Source of the DNA: a virus
Taxonomy: Duplodnaviria > Caudoviricetes
DNA length: 64,000 nucleotides
Virus record (IMG/VR): IMGVR_UViG_2900261899_000001
Coordinates: 41,248 to 105,247 of that record
Reading direction: 5' to 3' (one strand)
Shown piece by piece: positions 20,511-54,279 of the stretch. The position numbers and the translations under genes are program-made. Below the pieces are notes generated by a model that saw only the letters and a list, made by a program, of their open reading frames with translations, did no database searches and was not told where the DNA came from. How positions within the stretch are numbered: the first letter of the stretch is position 1; each line of letters starts with the position of its first letter.

Positions 20511-21096
20511 CGGGGAGGCTCCTCAACCCGAAGACCGGATTGAAAACCATCGACCGTATCAATATCTCGCGGCATACGTGAAGTTACGCAACGACATCAG
20601 CGAAATATGGTATGACAAGTCCGCAGACGCACTAAAACACTCTGTTGAGTTTAGTAAGCTCATAATCACCAACCTTCAGATCATCAATGCAGGCGGTCTT
20701 CTGGCGGTGCCAACCGTATCGGCAAGCGTTCTTGGGCTGACCGGACTGAATCATACTGAAAGGTTGTTATACCTTGGTCTTCCGATGGCTGTTTTTGCCC
20801 TTGGGCTCCTGCTCGCTACCCTATGCTCCTACTTTACATACCGGAACTATCTCGCGCACGCGCACACAGCGGATGCCCAGGCATGGAGATCGACTCTTGA
20901 AGTAGAGAATGCGCTGCCGAACCTTGCACTTGATCGAATAGAGCAGACAATCAGAAACTTGGAGGAGATTGACAAGCTACAGCTGGGGAATCTGGCTGCT
21001 GTTCAAAATAATTACATCCGCGTCTTGGTCTGTGGGTGGCTATCGGTCACTTGCTTTGTAGCTGCTTGCATTATTCTGGCTTTGTTTTCAAAATAG
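20503..21096 (+). CDS. Low-GC membrane protein (moron)
   Basis: About three hydrophobic segments; visibly lower GC than flanks. Confidence 0.65.
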   Translation: MNDGEAPQPEDRIENHRPYQYLAAYVKLRNDISEIWYDKSADALKHSVEFSKLIITNLQIINAGGLLAVPTVSASVLGLTGLNHTERLLYLGLPMAVFALGLLLATLCSYFTYRNYLAHAHTADAQAWRSTLEVENALPNLALDRIEQTIRNLEEIDKLQLGNLAAVQNNYIRVLVCGWLSVTCFVAACIILALFSK

Positions 21097-32466: not shown

Positions 32467-33063
32467 TCAGATCCGGCAGATGAGAGGGGCGAAGCCGGTC
32501 ATGGTGAACCGGTGGAAGTTGAGGTTCGGCGGCGCGAGCAGGTCGGCGTTGAGCGCCGTCACGGCGTCGATCTGAGCTTGCAGTTCGGCGACGCGTTGAT
32601 CGGTGTAGGCGGTGTCCGTCGGACCCTGCGGACCGGTGGTCAGCGCCGGCAGCACCACGCCCGAACCGGGCTGGCCGGCCACGAGGATCTGCGTGAAGGC
32701 CGCCTGCTGCCGAACCAGGGCGCTGTCGGTGGCCGGAAGAACCCGGACCGATGACCGCCCGAGCCATTCGTCGATCGTCGACCCCGTCACCGTCCGGTGA
32801 ACGTCGAACACGAGCGTCGTCGGGGTCGAAGCGAGCCAACCCCCGCGCGCCGCCTTCGGGACCGATAGGATGAGACTGTCCGTCAGCCCGTTCGTGTCCG
32901 CGATCCAGGTGATCGCACCGTTCGCACTATCGAGCGCCACGGCCTCGGGACCGCCGAAGCTGCCTGTCATCGTGGCCGTGAGCCGCGATCCCGTCAGGTT
33001 CAGGGGAACGACGAGTGGGACAATGACCCGCCAATCCGCGGTATCGAGGCATGTAGCGGGCAT
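32467..33063 (-). CDS. Fibre adaptor-like structural protein; 5' end matched by array 2
   Basis: DTADWR...PLNLTG pattern; position in tail-fibre cluster. Confidence 0.55.
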   Translation of the reverse strand: MPATCLDTADWRVIVPLVVPLNLTGSRLTATMTGSFGGPEAVALDSANGAITWIADTNGLTDSLILSVPKAARGGWLASTPTTLVFDVHRTVTGSTIDEWLGRSSVRVLPATDSALVRQQAAFTQILVAGQPGSGVVLPALTTGPQGPTDTAYTDQRVAELQAQIDAVTALNADLLAPPNLNFHRFTMTGFAPLICRI

Positions 33064-33082
33064 GGAAGACCTTCAGATCGAC

Positions 33083-33111
33083 TTGCTCCCGCAAGGGACC
33101 GGGAATACCGT
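33083..33111 (+). promoter_or_regulatory. Sigma70-like promoter of array 2
   Basis: TTGCTC-N17-TACCGT, 6 nt before the TAGC start of the array. Confidence 0.6.
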
Positions 33112-33117
33112 CGTGAC

Positions 33118-33236
33118 TAGCGCGGCATGGCACGGCACCGTTCGGCGTGGCATGGCGAGGCACGGCGCGGCGAGGCTGGGTCGGGTCTGGCGTGGCGTGG
33201 TAGGGGTGAAGAGGTCGGCGTGAGCCGGCCTTTTCC
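33118..33236 (+). ncRNA. GGY-NN pentamer array RNA 2 (candidate gapped guide RNA)
   Basis: TAGCGC, then GGCAT GGCAC GGCAC CGTTC GGCGT GGCAT GGCGA GGCAC GGCGC GGCGA GGCTG GGTCG GGTCT GGCGT GGCGT GGTAG GGGTG, then hairpin AAGAGGTCGGC-GTGA-GCCGGCCTTTT. Confidence 0.8.
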
Positions 33237-33247
33237 GCTTTTTGGAG

Positions 33248-33458
33248 CTACCGACCGTCGTCGCCCTGCCAGAGGGCCTGATCGGCCTGTGCGGGTCTGG
33301 ACATGGTGGATCTCGCATGAACGACTGCGCGGGCGCGCGGGCGAATGCACTCGATCCGAGCGCCGCTACGCCTCGGTGTTGCCGGCGCCGGGTTCGAGGA
33401 AGGACCGCGTGCCGTTGGTGACGGCCGACCGTGTGCGCGGACTGCGTTGCTTGGTCAT
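33248..33458 (-). pseudogene. Two short gene remnants
   Basis: 33458-33366 MTKQRSPRTRSAVTNGTRSFLE...* and 33304-33248 MSRPAQADQALWQGDD..*, both resembling truncated phage protein N-termini. Confidence 0.35.
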
Positions 33459-33679
33459 GGGTCGCGCCTTGGCGTCCCCACTGTCTCTGATGTGGTCGAG
33501 CGATCAGTCTTCGAATAGTTGATCGTATCAAGCAGGGCGGGCGGTGACTGATCGGGATTGGCAGTAAAGGCACGGCCCTGCGCCAAGGCCGAAGCAAGCA
33601 ACTGGATATGGATGCCACGAGGTCTTTTGAACCGTCCAGATGCTGCTATTTTTTTCTCCAAATCGTCTGACATTTTCAC
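33455..33679 (-). CDS. Small hypothetical protein
   Basis: ORF directly after tail spike; lower GC. Confidence 0.4.
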   Translation of the reverse strand: MKMSDDLEKKIAASGRFKRPRGIHIQLLASALAQGRAFTANPDQSPPALLDTINYSKTDRSTTSETVGTPRRDP

Positions 33680-33684
33680 CTATC

Positions 33685-35883
33685 TTAACCAAAATTGCGG
33701 TCAACGAATTTGTTCGTTGCGCCTGAGTTGTCGATAATACCTCCGGTGACGAGGTTTCTGGCGCTATTCTCAGTCACCCAGAAGTAATCACCGCATCCAG
33801 AGTCTAAGCGAACGCCAAATCCCTGCTTGGCCCCAGGCTGAGAGAAGTCGACGTTGAACTTGTTGCGGCTGATGTGAAAATCGGCATTGCCAGAACCGCC
33901 CACGCGAACGCCGCCGCTGCCGTTAATCGAAATATTGCAACTTTCGATGTTGAAGTTTTTGTTGTTGTTGTTGACTGCAAAGCCAATGTTTCGGCTTGCG
34001 CCAATGTCGCAGCCTATGAACTTGAGGCCGTCAGTGCTGTCCATCTGCACGGCGTTGCCGCCATGGTTCCAAGACCAGCATCCGATGTACATGCTCTGTG
34101 CGATCTGCGAGAGCAGCATCCCCTCGTGCGACGTATCCCAGAATACGTTCGCATAGCGGTTGTAGCCTGAGCACTGACCACGGGTGAGGCTCGGCGAGCC
34201 AATCGTCTTGGCATAGAGCCCGCCGATGAAATCGCCGTCGCTGAGGATGATGGCCTCGCAGGCCCCGACCTGTCGCAGAGAACCAAGGCTGAAGTCGTAA
34301 TCAATTGAGCTGATGGTGCCGACGGCGCCTGATGTGTTGCCCGTCACCGTCGTGCCAGCGGCCAGCTGGTTCGGGATCAGCATTCGGTACTGCGATCCAG
34401 TGAGCTGGATGATGTTCAAGCCCGTGTAAGGCGAGCCGGAGATCGTCAGCCCCTCGCCGGCCTGGAATGTGCCGTTGACGCTTGAGAAGTTGATGGTGTC
34501 GCAGATTGAGGCAGTAACGAACTGCGAGAGGAACACGTCGTTTGAGTTCTCGATGTAGACGGCGGTCTCTCGGCCGTCCGACACGCCGAAATCATAGCCA
34601 CGGACGCCCGCACTGTTCTTGACTGATATGCCTCGGTAGGCGGTCGAGATGTTGATGTCGTTGAAGTAGCCCGACACCTGCATGTCGAGGGCAACGCCAG
34701 CGGTCGGGCGAACCGAGAGCGACACCGGCCCCATGTCGATCCCGGAGATGCGGGAGCCGGGAACGCCGGTGGTGCGGATGAAGTTGGTGGTTCCCGTCGA
34801 CCAGCGCACGCGGGTGATCGCTCGGCCCCGGCCGACGAGGCTCTGCCCGCGGGTGGCCACCAGCGTACCGCCAGCCGCACGATACTCGCCGGCGCCCATC
34901 AGCCCGAGGCCATTGTTTACGAGGGCGTCGATCGCCTTCTGAGTGGCCGCGATGCAGTCGGTCGTCGTGTTCTTGAAGCCGTGAAACCAATCGACTTCGC
35001 AGACCGCGAGCCCAGCGATGGAGCCACCGGCCGACAGGTCGAAGATCTGATAGGCACCTGCAGTCAGACCCGCCGTGAAGGTGACCGTGACGCCGTTGTC
35101 CGGCTTCAGCATCACGCCACGCGGGAAACGATAGTGAGCCGAGAGGGTGATGTTGGACGAAATCCGGATCGTGCCGGGCTTAAGTAGCCATTCCCCGAAG
35201 CCTTGAAGCGCATCGGCGAACGAAAGATTTGCGGCATCGTCGGCCGTACCATTAGCGACCAGATTATTGAGAACAGGCGCCTTGGCGGCCAGAGACGCGG
35301 CTGTCGCCGCAGCATCGGCTGCTCCAACGTCGCTGGCGATGAGATTTATTGACGATCCGGATTTGCCATTGACCGTCGTCGGATTGCCTTGAGGCCCTTG
35401 CAGGCCCGCAGCGCCAGTGGCGCCTTGCGGTCCTTGCGCGCCCTGTGCTCCAGCCGCGCCGGCAGGCCCTCGAATTTGGCCGACGTTGTGCCAGTTGCCG
35501 CCGGGGCCGGCGTCGTTGCCGGAGGCGGTGTAGACGTAGCCGTCGCCGCTGGAATAGCCGGTCCCGTTCGACGTCATCAGGTAGACGTCGCCAAGCGTGT
35601 TGCCGGACGACGGAAGGTCCGAGGGGGTAGCCCGCGATCCTTTGATCGTCGTTCCCGCGCCTTGGTCGCCCTTCGGGCCAGGGTCGCCCTTCGGGCCAGG
35701 GTTGCCCTGCTGGCCGGGGTTGCCGCGCTCGCCACGCTCGCCCTGCAGACCGCGTTCGCCCTGGCCACCGGGCAAACCGGGGGCACCGGCGCCCCCAGGG
35801 AGGCCGCGTAGGCCCGGGGCGCCGCCGCCGAGCACGACCTGAGGCACGACGCCCGCGGAGGACGCGCCCAACACGTACGGCAT
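33685..35883 (-). CDS. Tail spike: collagen-like N-terminus plus right-handed beta-helix (pectate-lyase-like)
   Basis: (GXX)n repeats, W.NVGQIRGP, Asn/Gly-rich beta-helix C-terminus of lower GC. Confidence 0.75.
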   Translation of the reverse strand: MPYVLGASSAGVVPQVVLGGGAPGLRGLPGGAGAPGLPGGQGERGLQGERGERGNPGQQGNPGPKGDPGPKGDQGAGTTIKGSRATPSDLPSSGNTLGDVYLMTSNGTGYSSGDGYVYTASGNDAGPGGNWHNVGQIRGPAGAAGAQGAQGPQGATGAAGLQGPQGNPTTVNGKSGSSINLIASDVGAADAAATAASLAAKAPVLNNLVANGTADDAANLSFADALQGFGEWLLKPGTIRISSNITLSAHYRFPRGVMLKPDNGVTVTFTAGLTAGAYQIFDLSAGGSIAGLAVCEVDWFHGFKNTTTDCIAATQKAIDALVNNGLGLMGAGEYRAAGGTLVATRGQSLVGRGRAITRVRWSTGTTNFIRTTGVPGSRISGIDMGPVSLSVRPTAGVALDMQVSGYFNDINISTAYRGISVKNSAGVRGYDFGVSDGRETAVYIENSNDVFLSQFVTASICDTINFSSVNGTFQAGEGLTISGSPYTGLNIIQLTGSQYRMLIPNQLAAGTTVTGNTSGAVGTISSIDYDFSLGSLRQVGACEAIILSDGDFIGGLYAKTIGSPSLTRGQCSGYNRYANVFWDTSHEGMLLSQIAQSMYIGCWSWNHGGNAVQMDSTDGLKFIGCDIGASRNIGFAVNNNNKNFNIESCNISINGSGGVRVGGSGNADFHISRNKFNVDFSQPGAKQGFGVRLDSGCGDYFWVTENSARNLVTGGIIDNSGATNKFVDRNFG

Positions 35884-44507: not shown

Positions 44508-45249
44508 CATGATCCGCGCCGGGGATCCTATTCCGTCGATCGGGGCCGTAGAGGTTGGCAACGGTCCTTACGACGTCCTTATCACCTGGGCCGATGGTCA
44601 TCGAGCCGGCCAGCAAATCCTCATCGACCTCGCCCCAGTGATCCTGACCTACAAGGTCTTCATTCCGTTGCGCGATGACCGCCGTCTTTTCGCAACCGTG
44701 CGCGTGGCCGAGTACGGCGAGGCCATCGAGTGGGGTGATAACGATGATCTGGCGGTCGCTGGGACGACGTTGGAGCGCCTTGCCAACGAAACGATGACCA
44801 ATGTCGATTTTGCAGCATTTCTGAAGCGCAACAGGCTCACACTAGATGCCGCAGCTGGGCAGCTCGGGATCGGTCGTCGTCAGGTGTCATACTACGCCAA
44901 AGGGCGGGAGATTCCGAGATATATCTCCCTCGCTTGTAAATATATCGAAGAGCGCAAAGCAGTAGATGATATAAATAATTATTTATCTGCCGGCAACACG
45001 CTTACTAAGATAGGATTGCACAACTGTGTTATAACTGACGGGAATAACAACTTCGATTGCGTGGCTCAAGCTACCGCGGCCTGGGACAGTAATGTCGTGA
45101 TTATCAAAGATGGGGGGGTGATAGAAGGCTATTATGTACCACCGGGTGAGAAACCTGAAGTGATAGTTAAAGGCGGTACGATTAAGGTAGGTTCGGGAAA
45201 TGTAACTGGCACAAGGCGTGCTAAATTAAATCTTGATAAAATTAGATAA
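44494..45249 (+). CDS. DUF2442-HTH antitoxin-like protein with AT-rich C-terminal extension
   Basis: F.PL.D..LF..V....G.AIEW, HTH LT...AA..LGI.RR.V.YY..G..IPR.I.LAC. Confidence 0.7.
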   Translation: MSDRDMIRAGDPIPSIGAVEVGNGPYDVLITWADGHRAGQQILIDLAPVILTYKVFIPLRDDRRLFATVRVAEYGEAIEWGDNDDLAVAGTTLERLANETMTNVDFAAFLKRNRLTLDAAAGQLGIGRRQVSYYAKGREIPRYISLACKYIEERKAVDDINNYLSAGNTLTKIGLHNCVITDGNNNFDCVAQATAAWDSNVVIIKDGGVIEGYYVPPGEKPEVIVKGGTIKVGSGNVTGTRRAKLNLDKIR

Positions 45250-45384
45250 TAGCCATGACCGACCGATCTCTCACCGCCGGGCACCGCGATGATATTCTTC
45301 TACGCACCTTAGACGGCGATTAGAAAAGACTGAGACATTACCCATTTGGGGTAGGATGATATACTAGATTAGGATACCTCAATC

Positions 45385-45690
45385 GTGCAGCTTACAATTG
45401 AAGTGGGCGAACTTAAGGTTCTGGCGAGCGGTGTACTGCTTGTCGATTCCGGTCGAGATGTAAAGTTTACAATTGAAGGAAATGTGTTTGAGCTTATGAT
45501 TGATAAAGATGGGCCGCCATATGAAAAGGTTGGCACAAATCATATTCGAGCCTACTTTAACACTGATAAAATGGTCAGTACTAGTTCAATGATCGGCGAT
45601 TATAATGGTAGGCCGTTAATGATCTCAATCCGTGTTCAGCAGCAAGGTACCCACATTAGGCAGGTTTTTTATACACTGGGTCATCATTAA
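45385..45690 (+). CDS. AT-rich hypothetical protein
   Basis: AGGA RBS; low GC. Confidence 0.55.
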   Translation: MQLTIEVGELKVLASGVLLVDSGRDVKFTIEGNVFELMIDKDGPPYEKVGTNHIRAYFNTDKMVSTSSMIGDYNGRPLMISIRVQQQGTHIRQVFYTLGHH

Positions 45691-45992
45691 TGGCTGTCCG
45701 TCTAGATCTTCCGCCTGACAAAACTTTGGCAACCCGTGTAATTGAAACGGAAGCCGAGCACAATACGCGAAAACTTGAGCGCGGTTTAATGGGTTTGATC
45801 TTTGGTCTCGCCACCGAAAAACCCGGAAATATCGCTGGCTTTGCGCTGATAGCTTTCTGCCTCATGTTTGCGGGGGTTTTGATTTGGGGCACCGATAGCA
45901 GCAGTCTATCAAAGAAAGACGTACTTTCGCTTATAGGTGGTTTTATCACCTTAACGCTCGGCTTCGTATTTGGTCGAACATCATCGTCTTAG
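45690..45992 (+). CDS. AT-rich two-TM membrane protein
   Basis: TAATG coupling; hydrophobic segments ending LGFVFG. Confidence 0.6.
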   Translation: MAVRLDLPPDKTLATRVIETEAEHNTRKLERGLMGLIFGLATEKPGNIAGFALIAFCLMFAGVLIWGTDSSSLSKKDVLSLIGGFITLTLGFVFGRTSSS

Positions 45993-46030
45993 ATGTGTGG
46001 TGCAACGAAGTCATGGACATGAAGAAAATG

Positions 46031-46124
46031 GAAAAGGCCGGCGCGAGCCAGCCCTTTCACCCTTGCCTCGCCTCAACAAACCCCGCCCCGCGGTACCCCG
46101 CCTTGGCCGGCCGTGCCTTAGCTA
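46031..46124 (-). ncRNA. GGY-NN pentamer array RNA 3 (candidate gapped guide RNA)
   Basis: Minus strand: TA GCTAA GGCAC GGCCG GCCAA GGCGG GGTAC CGCGG GGCGG GGTTT GTTGA GGCGA GGCAA GGGTG, then AAAGGGCTGGC-TCGC-GCCGGCCTTTTC. Confidence 0.8.
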
Positions 46125-46131
46125 GATCTCG

Positions 46132-46160
46132 AGCCTAGGATCGGTCCAGCGGCTGGGCAA
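46132..46160 (-). promoter_or_regulatory. Sigma70-like promoter of array 3
   Basis: TTGCCC-N17-TAGGCT, 7 nt before TAGC; same layout as array 2 promoter. Confidence 0.6.
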
Positions 46161-46209
46161 GACAGAGGGTGTGTTTGTCCCTCCCGGTGTACGAGAGGGA
46201 CGGCCGCCG

Positions 46210-48729
46210 TCAGGCTAGGACGCGACCGCCGTACCCTACCGGCGTTTTCAGCGTCGAATCGTCGAACGAACCGGTCCCGTTTCTCGTGTTCGCTTCGGCG
46301 ACCTGATGGTGCGTCACGGACCGACCGACCGTGCGGCCGTCGAGATGCACCGAGCTGGCAACCTGGATCGGGGCGGAACGCCCCTTGTAGATCAGGGAGC
46401 TCGATTTGCCGGGTGTCGCACCGCCACCGCCACCGCCGCCGGACGCGCCGCTTCCGAGATCGGCGCCGCCCGCCGGTTTGGCGCTTGCGCTTCCGATCGC
46501 GGCACGAGCAGCAGCCGCTACCCCGCCGATCCAACCCGCAAGCGCGTTCAGCGGGCCGCCAGCGCCTTGCGCCGCTTGCCCCGCCTTCTGAGCGCCAGAC
46601 GCAGCCTCATTGAGCGTGGAGACCGCACCAGCTGCCGTAGACGCGAGCCGCTGCTTGGCCGCTTCGATATTCTCCGTCGAAAGGCCCAGCCCTTCGGTGC
46701 CGATGTGACGCCGCGGGTTTTCACCACCGCCCGTCATGAATCCGTCGGGACCGCCGAACTCGAATGGCGTGGTACTTTTTCGGCGCTGCTCGGATAGAGT
46801 GTCGGCAAGTTTGCGAGCTGGCTCGCCTGCGATCTTATCCCACGGAAGCGTGACGGCGGCGATGGTGACAGCCGCACCGGCACCGACAGCCAGCGCTGGA
46901 AGGCTGAGCGTGCCGACGGCGGCAATAGCTAGTGCTGCAATACCCGCAGCTGCCGCACCACCGACAACAGCGGCCGTGGCGCCCATCGCCGTCTCGGCTG
47001 CGACTGGATGCTTCTCTAGTGTGTTTGCCACGCCTCCAAGCGCTGCGTTCAAGCGGTTAAGGTTGTCGACAAGGTTTGGGATTGCTGGCTCCGAGAGTGC
47101 GGTCGCCACTGCGCCGCCCTGCGATTTGGTGCCCTGCAGAGCCGCATAGGGGTCGTCGCGCCTATAGGCCGTGGTATCGCCGGAAGTCTTATCGTACCCG
47201 GCGAAGTCTTTTTCGATCTTACTTTTTTGCTGCGCCAATTCGAACAAAAATCCGTAGGCGTTCTTGTCGGTAAAAATTTTACCGAGGGTACGAAGCAGAT
47301 CGGTCTTGTCATCAGTATTGACGCCACCCGCTTTGAGCTTCGGAATGACGTTGTTGTAAAGCCATAGATCCGGGTCCTTGGCCCGGTCATAAGTTTTTCC
47401 GTCCAAGCCCACATCTGAAAATTGAGCACCCGGCTGGACTAACGTGTGTTTCTTGTTCCAAGTGACAGTTGGTTCTTGAAGAAGATTATATTTGTAGGCT
47501 TCAGTGAGCCCCGAGCCCAGCATACGCAAGCCACCGACACCCTTTGCCGCGAAGGTCGCGAACTGGGTACCGGCGCGCTGTCCAATTTCCTGCGAAAGCG
47601 CCGCGAAGGCGCCGTAGCGAAAGTGGTCGCTGGTCAGATTTAGCATCTGACCGCCGTTTTTCTGTGCGGTAAAGTAGTTCGATGGGTTGAGCTTGTCGCC
47701 GTACCAGAAGGCCAACCTCATCAGCGAGTTGGCGTGCTTCTTGACCCCCTCCGAGGTAATCTCGTTAGCTGTTTCAGCCGATTTCACGGCCGTGTAAATC
47801 TCGTTTACAGCGTTCTTAGCGCCGTGATTGCCGGCTTTGGCCTTCAGTGCCGAGAACTCTGGTAGCAATTCTGGCGCTTCGTGAATTGCTTTGTCGATGT
47901 CGCCAAGAATACCGCGGAGATCGTTGATGTGCTCGAAGATCTCGACAGGGGATAGATTAGGAAATTGTTGCGAACCCTTATATGAAAGTTCCTTGGCATG
48001 ATCGATCTGCGCTGGGCTAGCTCCGGTCTGCCGCATGCCGAGTTCAATGTGGCGCATATCGACGCCGGTCTCGATGACCTCAGAGAGCGTATGGACCCCG
48101 CCGGAGACCCCAATGACGCTTGCAAGTGCCGAGCCTTCATGGCCGACGAGACCATGCGTTCCGTGACTGCGCCGGCCATGCCCCCTGCCACGCGTGGCGC
48201 GCCCGGCACCGGTGCCAGCGCCCCCGGCCCCGCCGCCACCCCGGACGGGCGTTGGCAAGTTCACATTGCTCGCGGCTGACTGCAGGCGACGCATGGCGCC
48301 GGCCGCCGAATTGATCCGGCTCGTCCAACCCGAGATCGACTGCGTGACACCCCGCGCCGCTGAAGCGACGCCTTGGGTCTCGCGGCGCATGACGCGCATC
48401 TCGGCGATGGGCTTGCCGATGGCGCTGGCCCAGCGCTGCATTTCACGGTCCAGACCGTTGCCACCCTTCAAGCCAGACATGGCACGCGAGATCCGCGCGA
48501 CCTCGCGCTCGATCTTTTGGCCGGCGGAGGAGGACTTCGACAGTTCGCGGTTCAGTTGGCCGGCGGCGGACGCAGCGCGGTTCAGGGGCGAGACCCAGCG
48601 ACCGAACGATTTCTCAACGGATTTGGTTTTAGAGTCGACATCGCTCAGGGTCTTGAGCAGGCGCGTCATCTCGGGCACGAGATTGCCCGCGAGCGTCATG
48701 CTCGTCTGGATGCGATACACGTCGCTCAC
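46210..48729 (-). CDS. Tape measure protein
   Basis: 839 aa helical Ala/Gly-rich ORF between tail chaperone region and baseplate; C-terminal LDGR.V. Confidence 0.8.
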   Translation of the reverse strand: MSDVYRIQTSMTLAGNLVPEMTRLLKTLSDVDSKTKSVEKSFGRWVSPLNRAASAAGQLNRELSKSSSAGQKIEREVARISRAMSGLKGGNGLDREMQRWASAIGKPIAEMRVMRRETQGVASAARGVTQSISGWTSRINSAAGAMRRLQSAASNVNLPTPVRGGGGAGGAGTGAGRATRGRGHGRRSHGTHGLVGHEGSALASVIGVSGGVHTLSEVIETGVDMRHIELGMRQTGASPAQIDHAKELSYKGSQQFPNLSPVEIFEHINDLRGILGDIDKAIHEAPELLPEFSALKAKAGNHGAKNAVNEIYTAVKSAETANEITSEGVKKHANSLMRLAFWYGDKLNPSNYFTAQKNGGQMLNLTSDHFRYGAFAALSQEIGQRAGTQFATFAAKGVGGLRMLGSGLTEAYKYNLLQEPTVTWNKKHTLVQPGAQFSDVGLDGKTYDRAKDPDLWLYNNVIPKLKAGGVNTDDKTDLLRTLGKIFTDKNAYGFLFELAQQKSKIEKDFAGYDKTSGDTTAYRRDDPYAALQGTKSQGGAVATALSEPAIPNLVDNLNRLNAALGGVANTLEKHPVAAETAMGATAAVVGGAAAAGIAALAIAAVGTLSLPALAVGAGAAVTIAAVTLPWDKIAGEPARKLADTLSEQRRKSTTPFEFGGPDGFMTGGGENPRRHIGTEGLGLSTENIEAAKQRLASTAAGAVSTLNEAASGAQKAGQAAQGAGGPLNALAGWIGGVAAAARAAIGSASAKPAGGADLGSGASGGGGGGGATPGKSSSLIYKGRSAPIQVASSVHLDGRTVGRSVTHHQVAEANTRNGTGSFDDSTLKTPVGYGGRVLA

Positions 48730-50815: not shown

Positions 50816-51313
50816 ATGCAAAATCGGAGAGCAATCCTCACGGCCCTTATTGCGGTACCGCTGACTGGGCCGTTGTGTGCGGGTCAGCCTCATCTTGACG
50901 CGGCCCTGCTCGACCTCGGCAGGCGCTTCGATGCCGCCGTGGCGGCGCACAAAGCCCACGTCCGGGCCTACTTCGCGGCTGACGAGGCCCATACCCAGGC
51001 GCTCCAGGCCGCTAAGTCGGCTGGGCGGTTCAAGGGGCTCGACGCTGAAGCCTACGCAGCGCTCCACTCGCAGCTAATTGAGCCGTTCAACGCGGCGCTA
51101 GAGAGGGACGACGAACTCCACGACGCCTGCGGCAAGCTGGGCGAGCAAATCATCGCGATCCAACCCAAGACTCTGGATGGAATCGCTGTTCTTGCCCGTG
51201 TCTGCCAGTTCGAATCGCGGCAGGCCTGGGAAGCGCCGAAGAGCCGCGAGTACGATGAGGACGTCCTCGTTGCCCTCGTCGACGGCATCTTGGCCGTGGC
51301 CGCTACGGCGTGA
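50816..51313 (+). CDS. Hypothetical protein
   Basis: NRR..L, DAALL.LG, I......TLDG....AR. Confidence 0.6.
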   Translation: MQNRRAILTALIAVPLTGPLCAGQPHLDAALLDLGRRFDAAVAAHKAHVRAYFAADEAHTQALQAAKSAGRFKGLDAEAYAALHSQLIEPFNAALERDDELHDACGKLGEQIIAIQPKTLDGIAVLARVCQFESRQAWEAPKSREYDEDVLVALVDGILAVAATA

Positions 51314-51753
51314 CCTACGAGGAATACCTTGCATCCCCACGATGGGCCGAGCTGCGCCGGCTGAGGCTAGCCCTCGACGGATTCCGCTGCCGGGGCTGCG
51401 ATACCGCCGACAATCTTGAGGTTCACCACCGGCGCTACGGCACCCCGCTGGGCAGCGAGACGGTCGACGACCTGACGACGCTCTGTGGCGGCCCCGAGGG
51501 CTGCCACCACGCGATCACCACCATCATCCGCCGCCGCCTGTACGCGACCCGTCAGTATGACGTGACCGCAGTCGCTCGGCTGGCCCCCGGCAATCTGGAG
51601 AAGAACGATGTCCCAGGACTACGAGCGTTTAAGATTTCGGCTCACCGGCGTGTCGCCCCTGGTCATGCACAACGGTCGCTTGGCGAACCCGCTGGACTCG
51701 TTTGCGAAGGCGCTGAAGGCGGTCTCGGGAAAGCGCGGCAAGACGGACGCTGA
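51310..51753 (+). CDS. HNH endonuclease
   Basis: Y.EYL.SPRW...R...L..DGFRCRGC....LEVHH..Y...G.E...DL.TLC....CH. Confidence 0.8.
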   Translation: MTYEEYLASPRWAELRRLRLALDGFRCRGCDTADNLEVHHRRYGTPLGSETVDDLTTLCGGPEGCHHAITTIIRRRLYATRQYDVTAVARLAPGNLEKNDVPGLRAFKISAHRRVAPGHAQRSLGEPAGLVCEGAEGGLGKARQDGR

Positions 51754-52183
51754 CTTCGAGGAGATGGCCCGTATCGAGTTCCTGGGCGGCCTCTATGTCG
51801 GCGACGATGGTCCTTGCATCCCCGGCGAATTGATCGAAGCGGTCCTGATCGCGGCGGCCAAAAAGAACAAGCGCGGCATGCAGGCCAAGGCCGGCATCCT
51901 TTCGGACGGCAACCACCGGGTCGAGTACCACGGCCCCAGAGGGGCAGAGGAGCTGTGGGCGGACGACCGCTTCCGCCTCGTTGCCGGCGTTCGTGTCGGA
52001 CAGGCCCGTGTGATGCGGACCCGCCCGATCTTTCGGGAGTGGTCGTCAGAAATCTTCGTTGACTTCCTGCCGGGTCAATTGAACCGGGCGGACGTCGCGG
52101 GAATGGTTAGAACCGCAGGCACCATCGTCGGCATCGGCGATTGGAGGCCGCGGTTTGGAAGGTTCACAGTGGAGACGCTGTGA
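51608..52183 (+). CDS. Stand-alone RAMP/Cas7-like protein
   Basis: N-terminal strand RFRLTGVSPLVMHN, central PCIPGELIEAVLIAAA, C-terminal Gly-rich loop AGTIVGIGDWRPRFGRFTV; GGAG RBS; directly followed by pentamer array. Confidence 0.7.
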   Translation: MSQDYERLRFRLTGVSPLVMHNGRLANPLDSFAKALKAVSGKRGKTDADFEEMARIEFLGGLYVGDDGPCIPGELIEAVLIAAAKKNKRGMQAKAGILSDGNHRVEYHGPRGAEELWADDRFRLVAGVRVGQARVMRTRPIFREWSSEIFVDFLPGQLNRADVAGMVRTAGTIVGIGDWRPRFGRFTVETL

Positions 52184-52273
52184 TAGCCCGGTAGGGCAAG
52201 GCGGGTCGCGGCATGCCTCGGCAAGGCGTGGTTCGGTAGGGGTGAAAAGGGCCGGCTTTCGCCGGCCCTTTTC
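52184..52273 (+). ncRNA. GGY-NN pentamer array RNA 1 (candidate gapped guide RNA)
   Basis: TAGCCC, then GGTAG GGCAA GGCGG GTCGC GGCAT GCCTC GGCAA GGCGT GGTTC GGTAG GGGTG, then hairpin AAAAGGGCCGGC-TTTC-GCCGGCCCTTTT. Confidence 0.8.
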
Positions 52274-52277
52274 CACA

Positions 52278-53414: not shown

Positions 53415-53645
53415 ATGCGGCGAATGATGTACGGCGCGCTGGCGGCGATCGCAGCGCTATGGTTGGTGGCGCCGGCGCCCGCGCAAGCGACGCCCGGCAT
53501 GCTGAATGCCCAAGGGTGCCATGGGCATCCCCGGCACTGTCACAGCCGCTCAGACTGGAGCACCAACAGCAGGGGACGACACTATGTGGCGGGGCACTTC
53601 GGCGGCGGTCATCGGCATCGTCGCCGCGGTCATCGGCGCCGGTAG
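53415..53645 (+). CDS. Small secreted His/Arg-rich protein
   Basis: Signal peptide, G.LNAQGCH....HCH, basic tail. Confidence 0.55.
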   Translation: MRRMMYGALAAIAALWLVAPAPAQATPGMLNAQGCHGHPRHCHSRSDWSTNSRGRHYVAGHFGGGHRHRRRGHRRR

Positions 53646-54279
53646 CGCCCGCGCCGAACCGATCGTCGGTCGCGCGTCGGTGATCGACGGCGACACGATC
53701 GAAATCCGGGGGCAGCGATTCCGGCTACAGGGCGTCGACACGCCCGAGAGCGCACAACTCTGCCAGGATGCCGGCGGGAAGGACTACCGCTGCGGGCAGA
53801 AGGCGTCGCTCGCCCTGGCCGACAAGATCGGCGCCGGCAACGTCTCCTGCGAACCCGTTACCACCGACCGCTACGGCCGTACTGTCGCGATCTGCTCGCT
53901 GAACGCGCTCGACCTGAACGGATGGCTCGTCGAGCAGGGGCTCGGCATGGCCTACCGGAAGTACTCGACAGCCTACGTCGGGCAGGAGGAGGCCGCGAAG
54001 GCCGCTCGGCGTGGGATCTGGCAGGGTGCGTTCACGCCGCCGTGGGACTGGCGGAAGGGCGAACGGATCGGGCCGGAGGGGCAAACTGTGCCCCCGCCCG
54101 TTCACACGGCCGGGGCCTGCGATATCAAGGGCAACATCAGTCGAGGCGGCGATCGGATCTACCACCTGCCCGGCTCGCGCAGCTACGAGAAGACGGTGAT
54201 CACAGAGTCATCGGGCGAGCGGATGTTCTGTTCCGAGGACGAAGCGAAGGCGGCCGGTTGGCGACCGCCTCGCGGTTGA
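53584..54279 (+). CDS. Thermonuclease (SNase) with C-terminal IKGNI domain
   Basis: VIDGDTI, RLQGVDTPE, DRYGR, CDIKGNI....IYH.PG...Y...FCSE.EA..AGWR. Confidence 0.85.
   Translation: MWRGTSAAVIGIVAAVIGAGSARAEPIVGRASVIDGDTIEIRGQRFRLQGVDTPESAQLCQDAGGKDYRCGQKASLALADKIGAGNVSCEPVTTDRYGRTVAICSLNALDLNGWLVEQGLGMAYRKYSTAYVGQEEAAKAARRGIWQGAFTPPWDWRKGERIGPEGQTVPPPVHTAGACDIKGNISRGGDRIYHLPGSRSYEKTVITESSGERMFCSEDEAKAAGWRPPRG

What the first reader, a model, noticed from the sequence alone, without database searches (positions are those of the whole stretch)
33019..33236. Array 2 decodes to a homolog of the start of the neighbouring tail gene
The NN string is AT AC AC TC GT AT GA AC GC GA TG CG CT GT GT. 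The divergent gene starting at 33063 reads ATG CCC GCT ACA TGC CTC GAT ACC GCG GAT TGG CGG GTC ATT GTC. In register from the ATG, 8 of 15 dinucleotides match (22/30 nt), including six in a row. The guide reads M-T-T-S-V-I-D-T-A-D-W-R-L-V-V against M-P-A-T-C-L-D-T-A-D-W-R-V-I-V, and most differences are conservative substitutions. The real target is therefore likely an orthologous allele in a related phage. This independently repeats the code found for array 3.
Basis: partly seen in the sequence, partly recalled or inferred. Interest (0 to 1): 0.92.

Follow-up and report, generated by a model that had tools for sequence, protein, structure and literature searches.

The report
VIPR guide RNA in a prophage
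The 5-base repeat array is a guide RNA gene of a recently described phage system (VIPR) that reads DNA two bases out of every three, and it is aimed at the start of a tail-module gene as carried by rival prophages rather than at the phage's own copy.

Summary
Positions 33124-33198 (+) hold 15 GGYNN units, then a constant GGTAGGGGTGAA and a terminator hairpin. Read with one skipped base per unit, the NN string matches the first 15 codons of the adjacent 198-aa gene at 22/30. It matches 9 of 12 orthologous gene starts in other genomes of the genus better, up to 26/30. In 12 of 12 loci the best place is codon 1. Shuffled guides reach at most 22.

This is not a new kind of system. Four 2026 bioRxiv preprints describe VIPR: a small RAMP protein (Vipr) plus vrRNAs made of GGY/NN repeats that recognise dsDNA by a "1-nt skip rule" and silence competing phages.

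The window meets the tested defining features:
- A Vipr homologue lies at 51608-52183. It has a Cas7-like fold, and the residues named for the solved Vipr structure are conserved.
- An HNH-like neighbour gene lies just upstream.
- Two further vrRNAs share the same tail (46026-46117 minus strand; 52190-52275 plus strand).

New details: two vrRNAs lie far from vipr, each has its own promoter-like leader, and each sits beside the phage's own diverged copy of its target. One self copy carries a rare synonymous AGA at a guide position. Verdict: new member of a known kind.

The parts
33082..33123 (+). Promoter-like leader of vrRNA A2 (CTTGCTC...GGACCG...TACCGTCGTGACTAGC)
   Evidence: A similar block (CTTGCYC, GGACCG, TA...TCG.GA, CTAGC) precedes array A1 at 46118-46161 (-). 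The motif occurs only at these two places in the window. Promoter function is inferred. The sigma-70 consensus scan did not call it.
33124..33198 (+). Guide region of vrRNA A2: 15 GGYNN units (14 conform to GGY; unit 4 is CGTTC)
   Evidence: The NN string matches orthologous gene starts at 21-26 of 30 under a 1-nt skip.
33199..33208 (+). Constant tail-proximal units GGTAG GGGTG, not part of the guide
   Evidence: Identical in A3 (52235-52244); A1 has GGCAA GGGTG. Their NN match 0 of 4 bases in the self site and in all 5 best orthologues.
33209..33246 (+). 3' tail: AAGAGG, GC-rich hairpin, U run (intrinsic terminator)
   Evidence: Terminator scan 33208-33235 plus T run. Fold -24.8 kcal/mol, z -2.9. 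The same architecture follows A1 and A3.
33019..33063 (-). Self near-target: first 15 codons of the adjacent 198-aa gene (22/30 = 73%)
32467..33063 (-). 198-aa tail-module gene of unknown function, with a conserved N-terminal ~150 aa and a variable C-terminus; this is the target family of A2
   Evidence: No Pfam or PHROG hit. 9 homologues. It lies between a collagen-like tail fibre gene (33685-35883) and tail-spike-like genes. The N-terminus is conserved in the homologues, so the ATG at 33063 is the real start.
51608..52183 (+). vipr: 191-aa RAMP-fold protein, the presumed partner of all three vrRNAs
   Evidence: AF2 pLDDT 93.4. The Foldseek hits listed at E<=0.001 are all CRISPR RAMP entries: Csm3/Cas7, type III-D, type VII and Cas6 (E 1e-4, prob 1.0). 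37% identity, E 4e-43, to the Felixounavirus HY02 protein, which is flanked by GGTNN arrays. phrog_4652 at 1e-52.
51310..51753 (+). HNH-like ORF upstream of and overlapping vipr; candidate vap (accessory) gene
   Evidence: PHROG HNH endonuclease families, best E 1.3e-6; no Pfam hit. A homologue lies directly upstream of vipr in 5 of 7 other Methylobacterium-type vipr loci examined (L036, L037, L038, L039, L042).
52190..52275 (+). vrRNA A3: 9 guide units, the constant GGTAGGGGTG, then a hairpin tail; it starts 6 bases after the vipr stop codon
   Evidence: No convincing target was found.
46026..46161 (-). vrRNA A1: leader 46118-46161, 10 guide units 46068-46117, constant GGCAAGGGTG 46058-46067, hairpin tail 46026-46057
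46258..46287 (-). Self near-target of A1: codons TRNGTGSFDD near the 3' end of the 839-aa tape-measure-like gene (17/20), in frame
   Evidence: (best place in the whole genome). The Arg codon here is AGA where the guide and two orthologues have CG.

Best explanation
Array 2 is a vrRNA gene of a VIPR (Viral Interference Programmable Repeat) system carried by a prophage. It is transcribed from the + strand, from its own leader, to a hairpin terminator. In the published mechanism, one Vipr protomer binds each GGY, and the protomers form a filament that displays the 15 NN dinucleotides. These pair with a DNA strand two bases out of three and skip the wobble base. The guide has the sense of the coding strand, so it would pair with the template strand. 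The address it spells is the first 15 codons (M-x-T-x-V-I-D-T-A-D-W-R-L-V-V) of a conserved tail-module gene family. Orthologous alleles in other prophages of the genus match at 80-87%, while the phage's own neighbouring allele has diverged to 73%. The most likely function is therefore silencing, or blocking, of the tail operon of related phages that superinfect or co-reside, while sparing self. What is shown here: the array anatomy, the code, the better match to non-self alleles, and the presence of a Vipr homologue with the functional residues. What is inferred from the literature: RNP formation, dsDNA binding, and repression as the outcome.
For: (1) Anatomy. 15 GGYNN units are followed by a constant tail shared with two other arrays in the same prophage. 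These three are the only such elements in the 4.6-Mb genome that carry this tail.
(2) Code. Only a 1-nt skip gives signal, and the skipped base is the wobble position in every case.
(3) Targets. In 12 of 12 orthologous loci the best place is codon 1. 9 of 12 beat the self copy and 5 of 12 reach 80% or more. Shuffles reach at most 22 against a real score of 26. One IMG/VR viral contig carries the same gene at 23/30.
(4) The guide covers the most conserved stretch of the family: D7, W11, V15 and P16 are nearly invariant.
(5) Effector. The 191-aa ORF is modelled with high confidence and its fold matches Cas7/Csm3. It is 37% identical to a Felixounavirus protein flanked by GGTNN arrays. The residues the cryo-EM paper names as binding G1, G2, Y3, the skip-base backbone and the non-target strand are H17, K33, R39, E71, K82, G87, R138, D177, W178 and R179. 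They stand at those very numbers in the HY02 protein and align to H21, K37, R43, E74, K85, G90, R139, D178, W179 and R180 here (the paper read). H21, R139, W179 and R180 are invariant, and D178 nearly invariant, across 42 homologues.
(6) vipr homologues in 6 other genomes of the genus were examined, giving 7 further loci counting the second locus of G000. 6 of these 7 loci have GGYNN arrays directly downstream; L041 is a partial match without one.
(7) Signs of self-escape. In the A1 self site the guide's CG faces AGA. That is the only AGA among 47 Arg codons of that gene, and AGA is 1.5% of Arg codons genome-wide, whereas two orthologues have CGC. In the A2 self site three of the four mismatches inside the conserved core are first-position changes among aliphatic residues: I to L, L to V, V to I.
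(8) Of the 11 other genomes that carry the target gene, only 1 (G008) also has a vipr homologue.
(9) The published biology matches: vrRNAs of 9-16 GGY/NN repeats plus a tail, the 1-nt skip rule, no PAM, either strand, and targets in competing phages and prophages.
Against: No expression data: no RNA run was listed, which is not evidence either way.
How many mismatches Vipr tolerates is not stated in the text I read, so 73% may not be enough to spare the self gene.
The percentages depend on unit boundaries. If the two constant tail units are counted, the best non-self score falls to 26/34 = 76%.
A1 matches its own phage at 17/20 = 85%, against 18/20 for two orthologues. A vrRNA of a close relative (G141) has its best match in the whole genus in its own tape-measure gene, at 18/20. 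The first paper reports no self hit at 80% or more in its sets.
The N-terminal divergence of the self protein (8 of 15 residues shared with L022) is about the same as the whole-protein divergence (64% identity), so escape is not proven for A2.
None of the 12 orthologous loci has a vrRNA beside the gene, so co-variation of a guide with its neighbouring allele could not be tested.
The HNH-like neighbour raises the possibility that the outcome is cleavage rather than repression.
Confidence: 0.78

Rival explanations
1. Self-regulation. The dispersed vrRNAs act on their own prophage. Vipr filaments bind the neighbouring tail gene start (A2) and the end of the tape-measure gene (A1), either to keep late genes silent in the lysogen or to time them. 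Being next to the target favours action in cis.
For: A1 and A2 each sit within 60-170 bp of the best in-window match. A1's self site is the best place in the whole genome, at 17/20. The G141 vrRNA's best match among 146 genomes is its own tape-measure gene at 18/20, with 0 of 500 shuffles reaching that score. Both dispersed vrRNAs carry their own leader.
Against: A2 matches 9 of 12 foreign alleles better than the self allele. The self sites differ from the guides exactly where orthologues agree with them, including a rare synonymous AGA. The papers I read report lower self scores than non-self scores and interpret this as avoidance of autoimmunity. Few related prophages are in the sampled genomes, so the self allele may simply be the nearest available relative of an unsampled true target.
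Confidence: 0.15
2. Decoy or 'guns for hire' use. A1 and A2 are solo vrRNAs meant to be loaded onto the Vipr of another, incoming phage and so redirect it, as described for satellite-encoded solo vrRNAs.
For: Solo vrRNAs away from vipr exist in satellites and in VIPR-null phages (abstract and section 8 of 10.64898/2026.10.15.759431). A1 and A2 lie 5.5 and 18.5 kb from vipr and carry their own leaders.
Against: A1 and A2 share their constant units and tail with A3, which abuts the resident vipr. Close relatives' vrRNAs have different tails. That points to loading by the resident Vipr. The targets are phage structural genes, not multi-copy host repeats.
Confidence: 0.05
3. No guide at all. The array is a GGC-triplet binding site for an RNA-binding protein in front of a terminator (a TRAP-like attenuator), or a G-rich structural element, and the resemblance to the gene is chance.
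For: There is a triplet repeat with 2-nt spacers directly upstream of a terminator hairpin. The self match alone is only tied for best at genome scale.
Against: In 12 of 12 orthologous loci the best place is in register at codon 1, at up to 26/30, with shuffles reaching at most 22. The signal is specific to the 1-nt skip. A Vipr homologue is present.
Confidence: 0.02

Closest known systems
VIPR systems, type II (Escherichia phage SUSP1 and Pseudomonas fulva prophage; bioRxiv 10.64898/2026.04.26.720920 and 10.64898/2026.04.26.720927)
   Same: A ~20-kDa RAMP-fold Vipr with the same G-loop (GDWRPRFGRF), thumb Arg and beta-sheet His. vrRNAs of GGY/NN pentamers followed by a constant 3' tail. The 1-nt skip code is aligned to the wobble position. 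Targets lie in related mobile elements. One vrRNA lies directly beside vipr.
   Different: Only 37% identity to the Felixounavirus protein. The repeat is mostly GGC rather than GGT. The tail is a plain GC hairpin terminator; I did not test for a pseudoknot. The neighbour gene is HNH-like and upstream, not the downstream 146-aa gene seen in HY02. Two vrRNAs lie 5.5 and 18.5 kb from vipr, inside the tail module. The VIPR type (I-VII) could not be assigned because the classification is in figures and supplements that I could not see.
Solo / orphan vrRNAs of satellites and VIPR-null phages (bioRxiv 10.64898/2026.10.15.759431)
   Same: vrRNA genes that stand apart from vipr and have their own transcription signals. 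Self-match scores are lower than non-self scores.
   Different: Here the phage keeps vipr. Each dispersed vrRNA sits next to the phage's own diverged copy of the gene it addresses. The sections I read do not describe such an arrangement.
Class 1 CRISPR backbone (Cas7/Csm3 filaments on crRNA)
   Same: The RAMP fold is the top structural match. One protomer binds per repeat of the guide, and a thumb breaks the duplex periodically (per the papers).
   Different: No direct repeat/spacer array was found in the window. No cas gene was seen among the ORFs I scanned, which is only part of the window. The guide information is non-contiguous, 2 bases of every 5 in the RNA against 2 of every 3 in the DNA, whereas CRISPR pairs 5 of every 6.
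TRAP-type attenuators (trinucleotide repeats with 2-3-nt spacers ahead of a terminator; recalled, not from a call)
   Same: A triplet repeat with 2-nt spacers next to a terminator, bound by one protein subunit per triplet.
   Different: In TRAP the spacers carry no information. Here they spell a gene start.

Membership tests
VIPR | A Vipr protein: small RAMP fold with RRM core, glycine-rich loop and thumb | tested here: met
   ORF 51608-52183. AF2 pLDDT 93.4, pTM 0.86. The Foldseek PDB hits listed at E<=0.001 are all CRISPR RAMP entries (Csm3/Cas7, type III-D, type VII, Cas6), with TMq 0.27-0.56. The C-terminal GIGDWRPRFGRF is the G-loop.
VIPR | Sequence relationship to characterised Vipr proteins and conservation of their functional residues | tested here: met
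   tblastn hit 136 phage records, among them Felixounaviruses at E 2e-32. BLASTP to the HY02 protein gave 37% identity, E 4e-43. H17, K33, R39, E71, K82, G87, R138, D177, W178 and R179 of the cryo-EM paper are at those numbers in HY02 and align to identical residues here. SUSP1 itself was not fetched.
VIPR | vrRNA made of tandem GGY/NN (YNNGG) pentamers, at least 4 and typically 9-16 units | tested here: met
   A2 has 15 guide units plus 2 constant units, A1 has 10+2, A3 has 9+2.
VIPR | Constant, structured 3' tail after the repeats | tested here: met
   GG(TAG/CAA)GGGTGAA plus a 12-15-bp hairpin plus a U run in all three arrays. A pseudoknot, as in the SUSP1 clade, was not examined.
VIPR | Target read by the 1-nt skip rule, with the skipped base at the wobble position | tested here: met
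   Skips of 0, 2 or 3 bases and the reversed unit order give background (15-20). A skip of 1 gives 21-26 of 30 for A2 and 18 of 20 for A1. All sites are in frame with NN on codon positions 1-2.
VIPR | Natural target with at least 80% NN match in another mobile element | tested here: met
   A2: 5 of 12 orthologous loci reach 24/30 or more. A1: 18/20 in L044 and L045. A3: none found.
VIPR | No self hit at 80% or more (reported for the published sets) | tested here: inconclusive
   A2 self is 73%. A1 self is 85% over 10 units, or 77% if the GGCAA unit is counted. G141's vrRNA self match is 90%.
VIPR | vipr-accessory (vap) gene next to vipr | tested here: inconclusive
   An HNH-like ORF at 51310-51753 has homologues upstream of vipr in 5 of 7 other loci. 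There is no Pfam hit. A legend in the paper mentions HNH-domain Vap proteins, but I could not compare sequences.
VIPR | vrRNA is expressed, co-purifies with Vipr, and the RNP binds dsDNA and represses transcription | not testable with these tools
   No RNA run was listed. This needs sRNA-seq, pull-down and reporter assays.
CRISPR-Cas (considered) | Array of 25-40-nt direct repeats with spacers, and cas genes | tested here: not met
   Tandem Repeats Finder shows no such array in the window. Only part of the window's ORFs were scanned against Pfam or PHROGs, and none of them matched a Cas family.

The most novel reading that the evidence does not exclude
The dispersed vrRNA genes form 'guide plus immune allele' cassettes. 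Each guide is physically linked to a copy of its own target gene that has escaped it. Escape is by the few changes a wobble-skipping guide can see: a synonymous CGN-to-AGA switch and first-position swaps among I, L and V. In a population of mosaic prophages such a pair would behave like a poison-antidote element. A rival carrying the ancestral allele is silenced, and a recombinant is safe only if it takes guide and allele together. The same adjacency would also allow some self-directed control of late genes.
Probability: 0.3. Interest if true: 0.65.

Novelty: new member of a known kind. Interest (0 to 1): 0.42.

Why it matters
A reader without tools recovered the published VIPR code from raw sequence, and the code holds in an organism group far from the characterised E. 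coli and Pseudomonas systems. Names on close homologues suggest the group is Methylobacterium. The locus gives a natural, testable guide-target pair: A2 against the conserved start of a tail-module gene found in 11 of 145 other genomes of the genus. It offers a contrast between a 73% self allele and 80-87% rival alleles that could calibrate the mismatch tolerance of Vipr. It also provides a concrete example of the only kind of synonymous escape open to a target of a wobble-skipping guide (Arg CGN to AGA). Finally, the placement of guides beside their own diverged targets, and two self matches at 85-90%, bear on whether VIPR is purely a weapon against rivals or also a regulator of its own phage.

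Tried and rejected
- Rfam at gathering thresholds gave 0 matches in the window.
- The constant tail motif was searched in 60 relatives. All 6 non-self hits were tRNA ends, a poly-G stretch or coding sequence, not arrays.
- The same motif in IMG/VR gave 12 hits, none an array.
- The 198-aa protein has no relative in IMG/VR by the protein route.
- An exact 18-base gapped pattern then found one viral contig carrying the gene. The metagenome scan returned only that same 56,204-nt contig.
- The single genome-contig scan used a 16-base gapped pattern. It was uninformative, and I did not inspect those loci.
- None of the 12 orthologous loci has a pentamer array within 1.5 kb.
- A3: the best in-window, in-genome and genus-wide matches are scattered. 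There were 15 hits at 2 or fewer mismatches against 3 for the reversed control, with no common gene. Its target is unknown.
- For the vrRNAs of G078 I found no self or window match above background.
- Reading the array as a mini-ORF with NNG codons or as quintuplet decoding, as a 5'UTR fold-back onto the coding start, as a G-quadruplex, or as a TRAP-like site were all considered and dropped once the orthologue matches and the Vipr homologue were in hand.
- No RNA holder was listed for 32900-33400.
Supplementary files of the papers were not opened. They may hold the type classification and the list of 2,664 Vipr sequences, which might already include this protein family, so I do not claim that this locus is unreported.

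Papers:
- 10.64898/2026.04.26.720920: outline with abstract; sections 4, 10, 18, 20, 26, 27; passages.
- 10.64898/2026.04.26.720927: outline, part 1 of section 4, and a term search with no hits.
- 10.64898/2026.10.15.759431: outline, sections 8 and 17, passages.
- 10.64898/2026.10.21.760802: passages only.
Full report
**What is there.** Positions 33124-33198 of the + strand hold 15 five-base units of the form GGYNN; 14 conform, and unit 4 is CGTTC. They are followed by GGTAG GGGTG, then AAGAGG, a GC-rich hairpin and a T run. A period-5 scan of the window and of the whole 4.6-Mb assembly finds only two more elements with the same ending. One is on the minus strand at 46026-46117 (here A1). The other is on the plus strand at 52190-52275 (here A3). 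The array of the finding is A2. All three end in GG(TAG/CAA)GGGTGAA plus a 12-15-bp hairpin plus TTTTCC. A1 and A2 are also preceded by a similar 42-44-base leader (CTTGCYC ... GGACCG ... TA...TCG.GA ... CTAGC), which occurs nowhere else in the window. A3 begins six bases after the stop codon of a 191-aa ORF.

**Check of the observation.** 8 of 15 dinucleotides match, which is 22 of 30 bases, with six in a row. This is the best place in the window on either strand. Unit shuffles of the guide reached 22 in 0 of 300 trials and base shuffles in 1 of 300. At the scale of the whole genome the self match is only tied with four other places on a local score, so taken alone it would be suggestive rather than proven.

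**The decisive test.** The 198-aa protein has nine homologues in the large protein collection. Their N-termini read MATTVIDTADWSLVV, MRTNVIDTADWRLVV and the like. That is closer to the decoded guide (M-T-T-S-V-I-D-T-A-D-W-R-L-V-V) than the phage's own MPATCLDTADWRVIV. A protein search of the 146 genomes of the genus found the gene in 11 other genomes, giving 12 loci. In 12 of 12 loci the best-scoring place for the guide, over about 3.5 kb and both strands, is exactly codon 1 of the gene. The scores are 26, 25, 25, 24, 24, 23, 23, 23, 23, 21, 21 and 21 of 30. Nine exceed the self score of 22, and five reach 80% or more. Unit shuffles never exceeded 22, and 0 of 300 reached the real score in 11 of 12 loci. 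Skips of 0, 2 or 3 bases, and the guide with its units in reverse order, give background values of 15-20. The two constant units before the tail (AG, TG) match nothing in any allele, so they belong to the tail and not to the guide. One IMG/VR viral contig carries the same gene at 23/30.

**The same code in a second array.** A1's ten guide units match, in frame, the codons TRNGTGSFDD near the end of the upstream 839-aa tape-measure-like gene at 17/20. This is the best place in the whole genome. They match the equivalent site in two orthologues at 18/20. For A3, with only 18 informative bases, I found no convergent target in the window, the genome or the genus.

**What it is.** A literature search on pentanucleotide repeats and guide RNA led to four 2026 bioRxiv preprints on VIPR. 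As read, the system works as follows.
- Vipr is a ~20-kDa RAMP protein, encoded mostly in phages and prophages.
- vrRNAs consist of 9-16 GGY/NN repeats followed by a constant tail.
- One protomer binds per repeat and sequesters the GGY.
- The NN pair with a DNA strand in which every third base is skipped, and the skipped base usually falls on the codon wobble position.
- Either strand can be targeted, and no PAM is needed.
- The outcome shown is transcriptional silencing.
- Natural targets are satellites, resident prophages and rival VIPR systems, scored at 80% or more NN match. No self hit at that level was found in the published sets.

**Membership.** The 191-aa ORF 51608-52183 has no Pfam family but matches phrog_4652 at 1e-52. 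It has over a thousand homologues in the protein collection. With an alignment of 42 of them it folds at pLDDT 93.4. The PDB structures listed at E of 0.001 or better are all CRISPR RAMP entries: Csm3/Cas7 of type III-A, type III-D, type VII Cas7 and Cas6. By tblastn it hits 136 phage records, many of them Felixounaviruses. In Escherichia phage HY02 the homologue is flanked on both sides by GGTNN arrays. The pairwise alignment is 37% identical with E 4e-43. The residues the cryo-EM paper names are H17, K33, R39, E71, K82, G87, R138, D177, W178 and R179. They stand at exactly those numbers in HY02 and align to identical residues here: H21, K37, R43, E74, K85, G90, R139, D178, W179 and R180. H21, R139, W179 and R180 are invariant, and D178 nearly so, in my alignment. 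Within the genus, 7 of 146 genomes, this one included, have a vipr homologue. That gives 7 further loci, counting a second locus in this genome, and 6 of the 7 have GGYNN arrays directly downstream. An HNH-like ORF (51310-51753; PHROG HNH families, best E 1.3e-6; no Pfam hit) lies just upstream of vipr. It has homologues in the same position in 5 of the 7 other loci. It is a candidate vap gene, and a figure legend in the paper mentions HNH-domain Vap proteins. I could not assign the VIPR type, because that rests on figures and supplements I could not see.

**How it most likely works.** The guide has the sense of the coding strand, so under the published model it pairs with the template strand of the first 45 bp of the gene. 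This stretch is the most conserved in the family (D7, W11, V15 and P16 are nearly invariant). A Vipr filament there would block the tail operon of a related phage. Only one of the 11 other genomes with the target gene also has a vipr homologue. The phage's own allele differs from the guide at seven units. Within the conserved core three of the four differences are first-position swaps among aliphatic residues: ATC to CTC, CTC to GTC, and GTC to ATT.

For A1 the self site differs at two units. One of them is Arg encoded by AGA, where the guide has CG and both orthologues have CGC. AGA is 1.5% of Arg codons in 1,123 long ORFs of the genome, and this is the only AGA among 47 Arg codons in that gene. 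A wobble-skipping guide can be escaped synonymously only through the six-fold degenerate amino acids, so this is what escape from one's own guide would look like. I take this as moderate support for rival-directed guides and self alleles that have moved away from them.

**What speaks against, and the main rival.** I have no expression data. The tolerated number of mismatches is not given in the text I read. The percentages also move with the choice of unit boundaries: the best score is 26/34 if the constant units are counted. A1's self match is 85%, or 77% if the GGCAA unit is counted. In the closest vipr-bearing relative for which I held a whole contig (G141), the vrRNA beside vipr matches that prophage's own tape-measure gene at 18/20, in frame. 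No shuffle reached this in 500 trials, and no other genome of the genus has a better site. This differs from the published statement that no self hit reached 80%. Both dispersed vrRNAs also sit 60-170 bp from their self sites. Self-regulation of late genes is therefore a live alternative, at about 0.15. It may equally be that the self allele is just the nearest sampled relative of an unsampled perfect target. I could not test co-variation between guides and neighbouring alleles. None of the 12 orthologous loci has an array, the metagenome scan added no new locus, and the look-up of contigs by protein was closed.

**Novelty.** What may be new is the following.
- The host group.
- The plain hairpin tail.
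- The HNH-like neighbour inside a prophage.
- vrRNA genes placed 5.5 and 18.5 kb from vipr within the tail module, each beside the phage's own diverged copy of its target.
- The AGA escape signature.
- The self matches at 85-90%.

I rate it a new member of a known kind, of moderate interest.

Noticed in passing
G000:C2:132842-133402 and 133419-133453 (outside the window; locus L042): The same genome holds a second vipr homologue (42% identity to the window's). A 7-unit GGYNN array (GGCTC GGCTA GGCGA GGTCA GGTTT GGTTA GGCAT) lies directly downstream with a different hairpin tail, and an HNH-like ORF lies upstream. That makes two VIPR systems in one cell.
   Followed up: partly
G141:C162:25635-25699 (vrRNA) and 20514-20542 (site); loci L190, L191, L200: In a prophage whose Vipr is 80% identical, the vrRNA next to vipr matches the prophage's own 923-aa tape-measure gene at 18/20, in frame. 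0 of 500 shuffles reach this, and no genome of the genus has a better site.
   Followed up: yes
G078:C3:667585-667654 (locus L186): A prophage whose Vipr is 83% identical also has a vrRNA-like array about 8 kb upstream of vipr, besides two tandem arrays directly downstream. Its tails differ from those in the window. No target was found above background.
   Followed up: partly
window 33600-33999 and 44800-45999: There are low-GC islands (0.48, and 0.43-0.47, against 0.66 for the window) directly next to vrRNA A2 and vrRNA A1. The first covers the 3' end of the collagen-like tail fibre gene. The vrRNA genes thus sit at likely module junctions.
   Followed up: no
window 51608-51753: The HNH-like ORF and vipr overlap by about 145 bases in different frames. 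The full-length match of the HNH-like ORF in L036 overlaps vipr there too. Whether the overlap is real or the upstream ORF ends earlier in practice is open.
   Followed up: no
window 32467-33063 and 51608-52183: The proteins on record for this assembly are shorter than the ORFs (167 against 198 aa; 177 against 191 aa). Homologues conserve the missing N-termini, so the recorded starts look too far downstream. With the recorded start, the guide's target site would have been taken for non-coding.
   Followed up: partly
window 53506-54279 (+): An ORF with a staphylococcal-nuclease domain (PF00565, E 1.4e-14) lies 1.2 kb downstream of the VIPR locus. No link to VIPR was tested.
   Followed up: no
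window 35664-35724: An 18-base tandem repeat (3.4 copies, 90% matches) lies inside the collagen-like N-terminal part of the 732-aa tail fibre gene.
   Followed up: no
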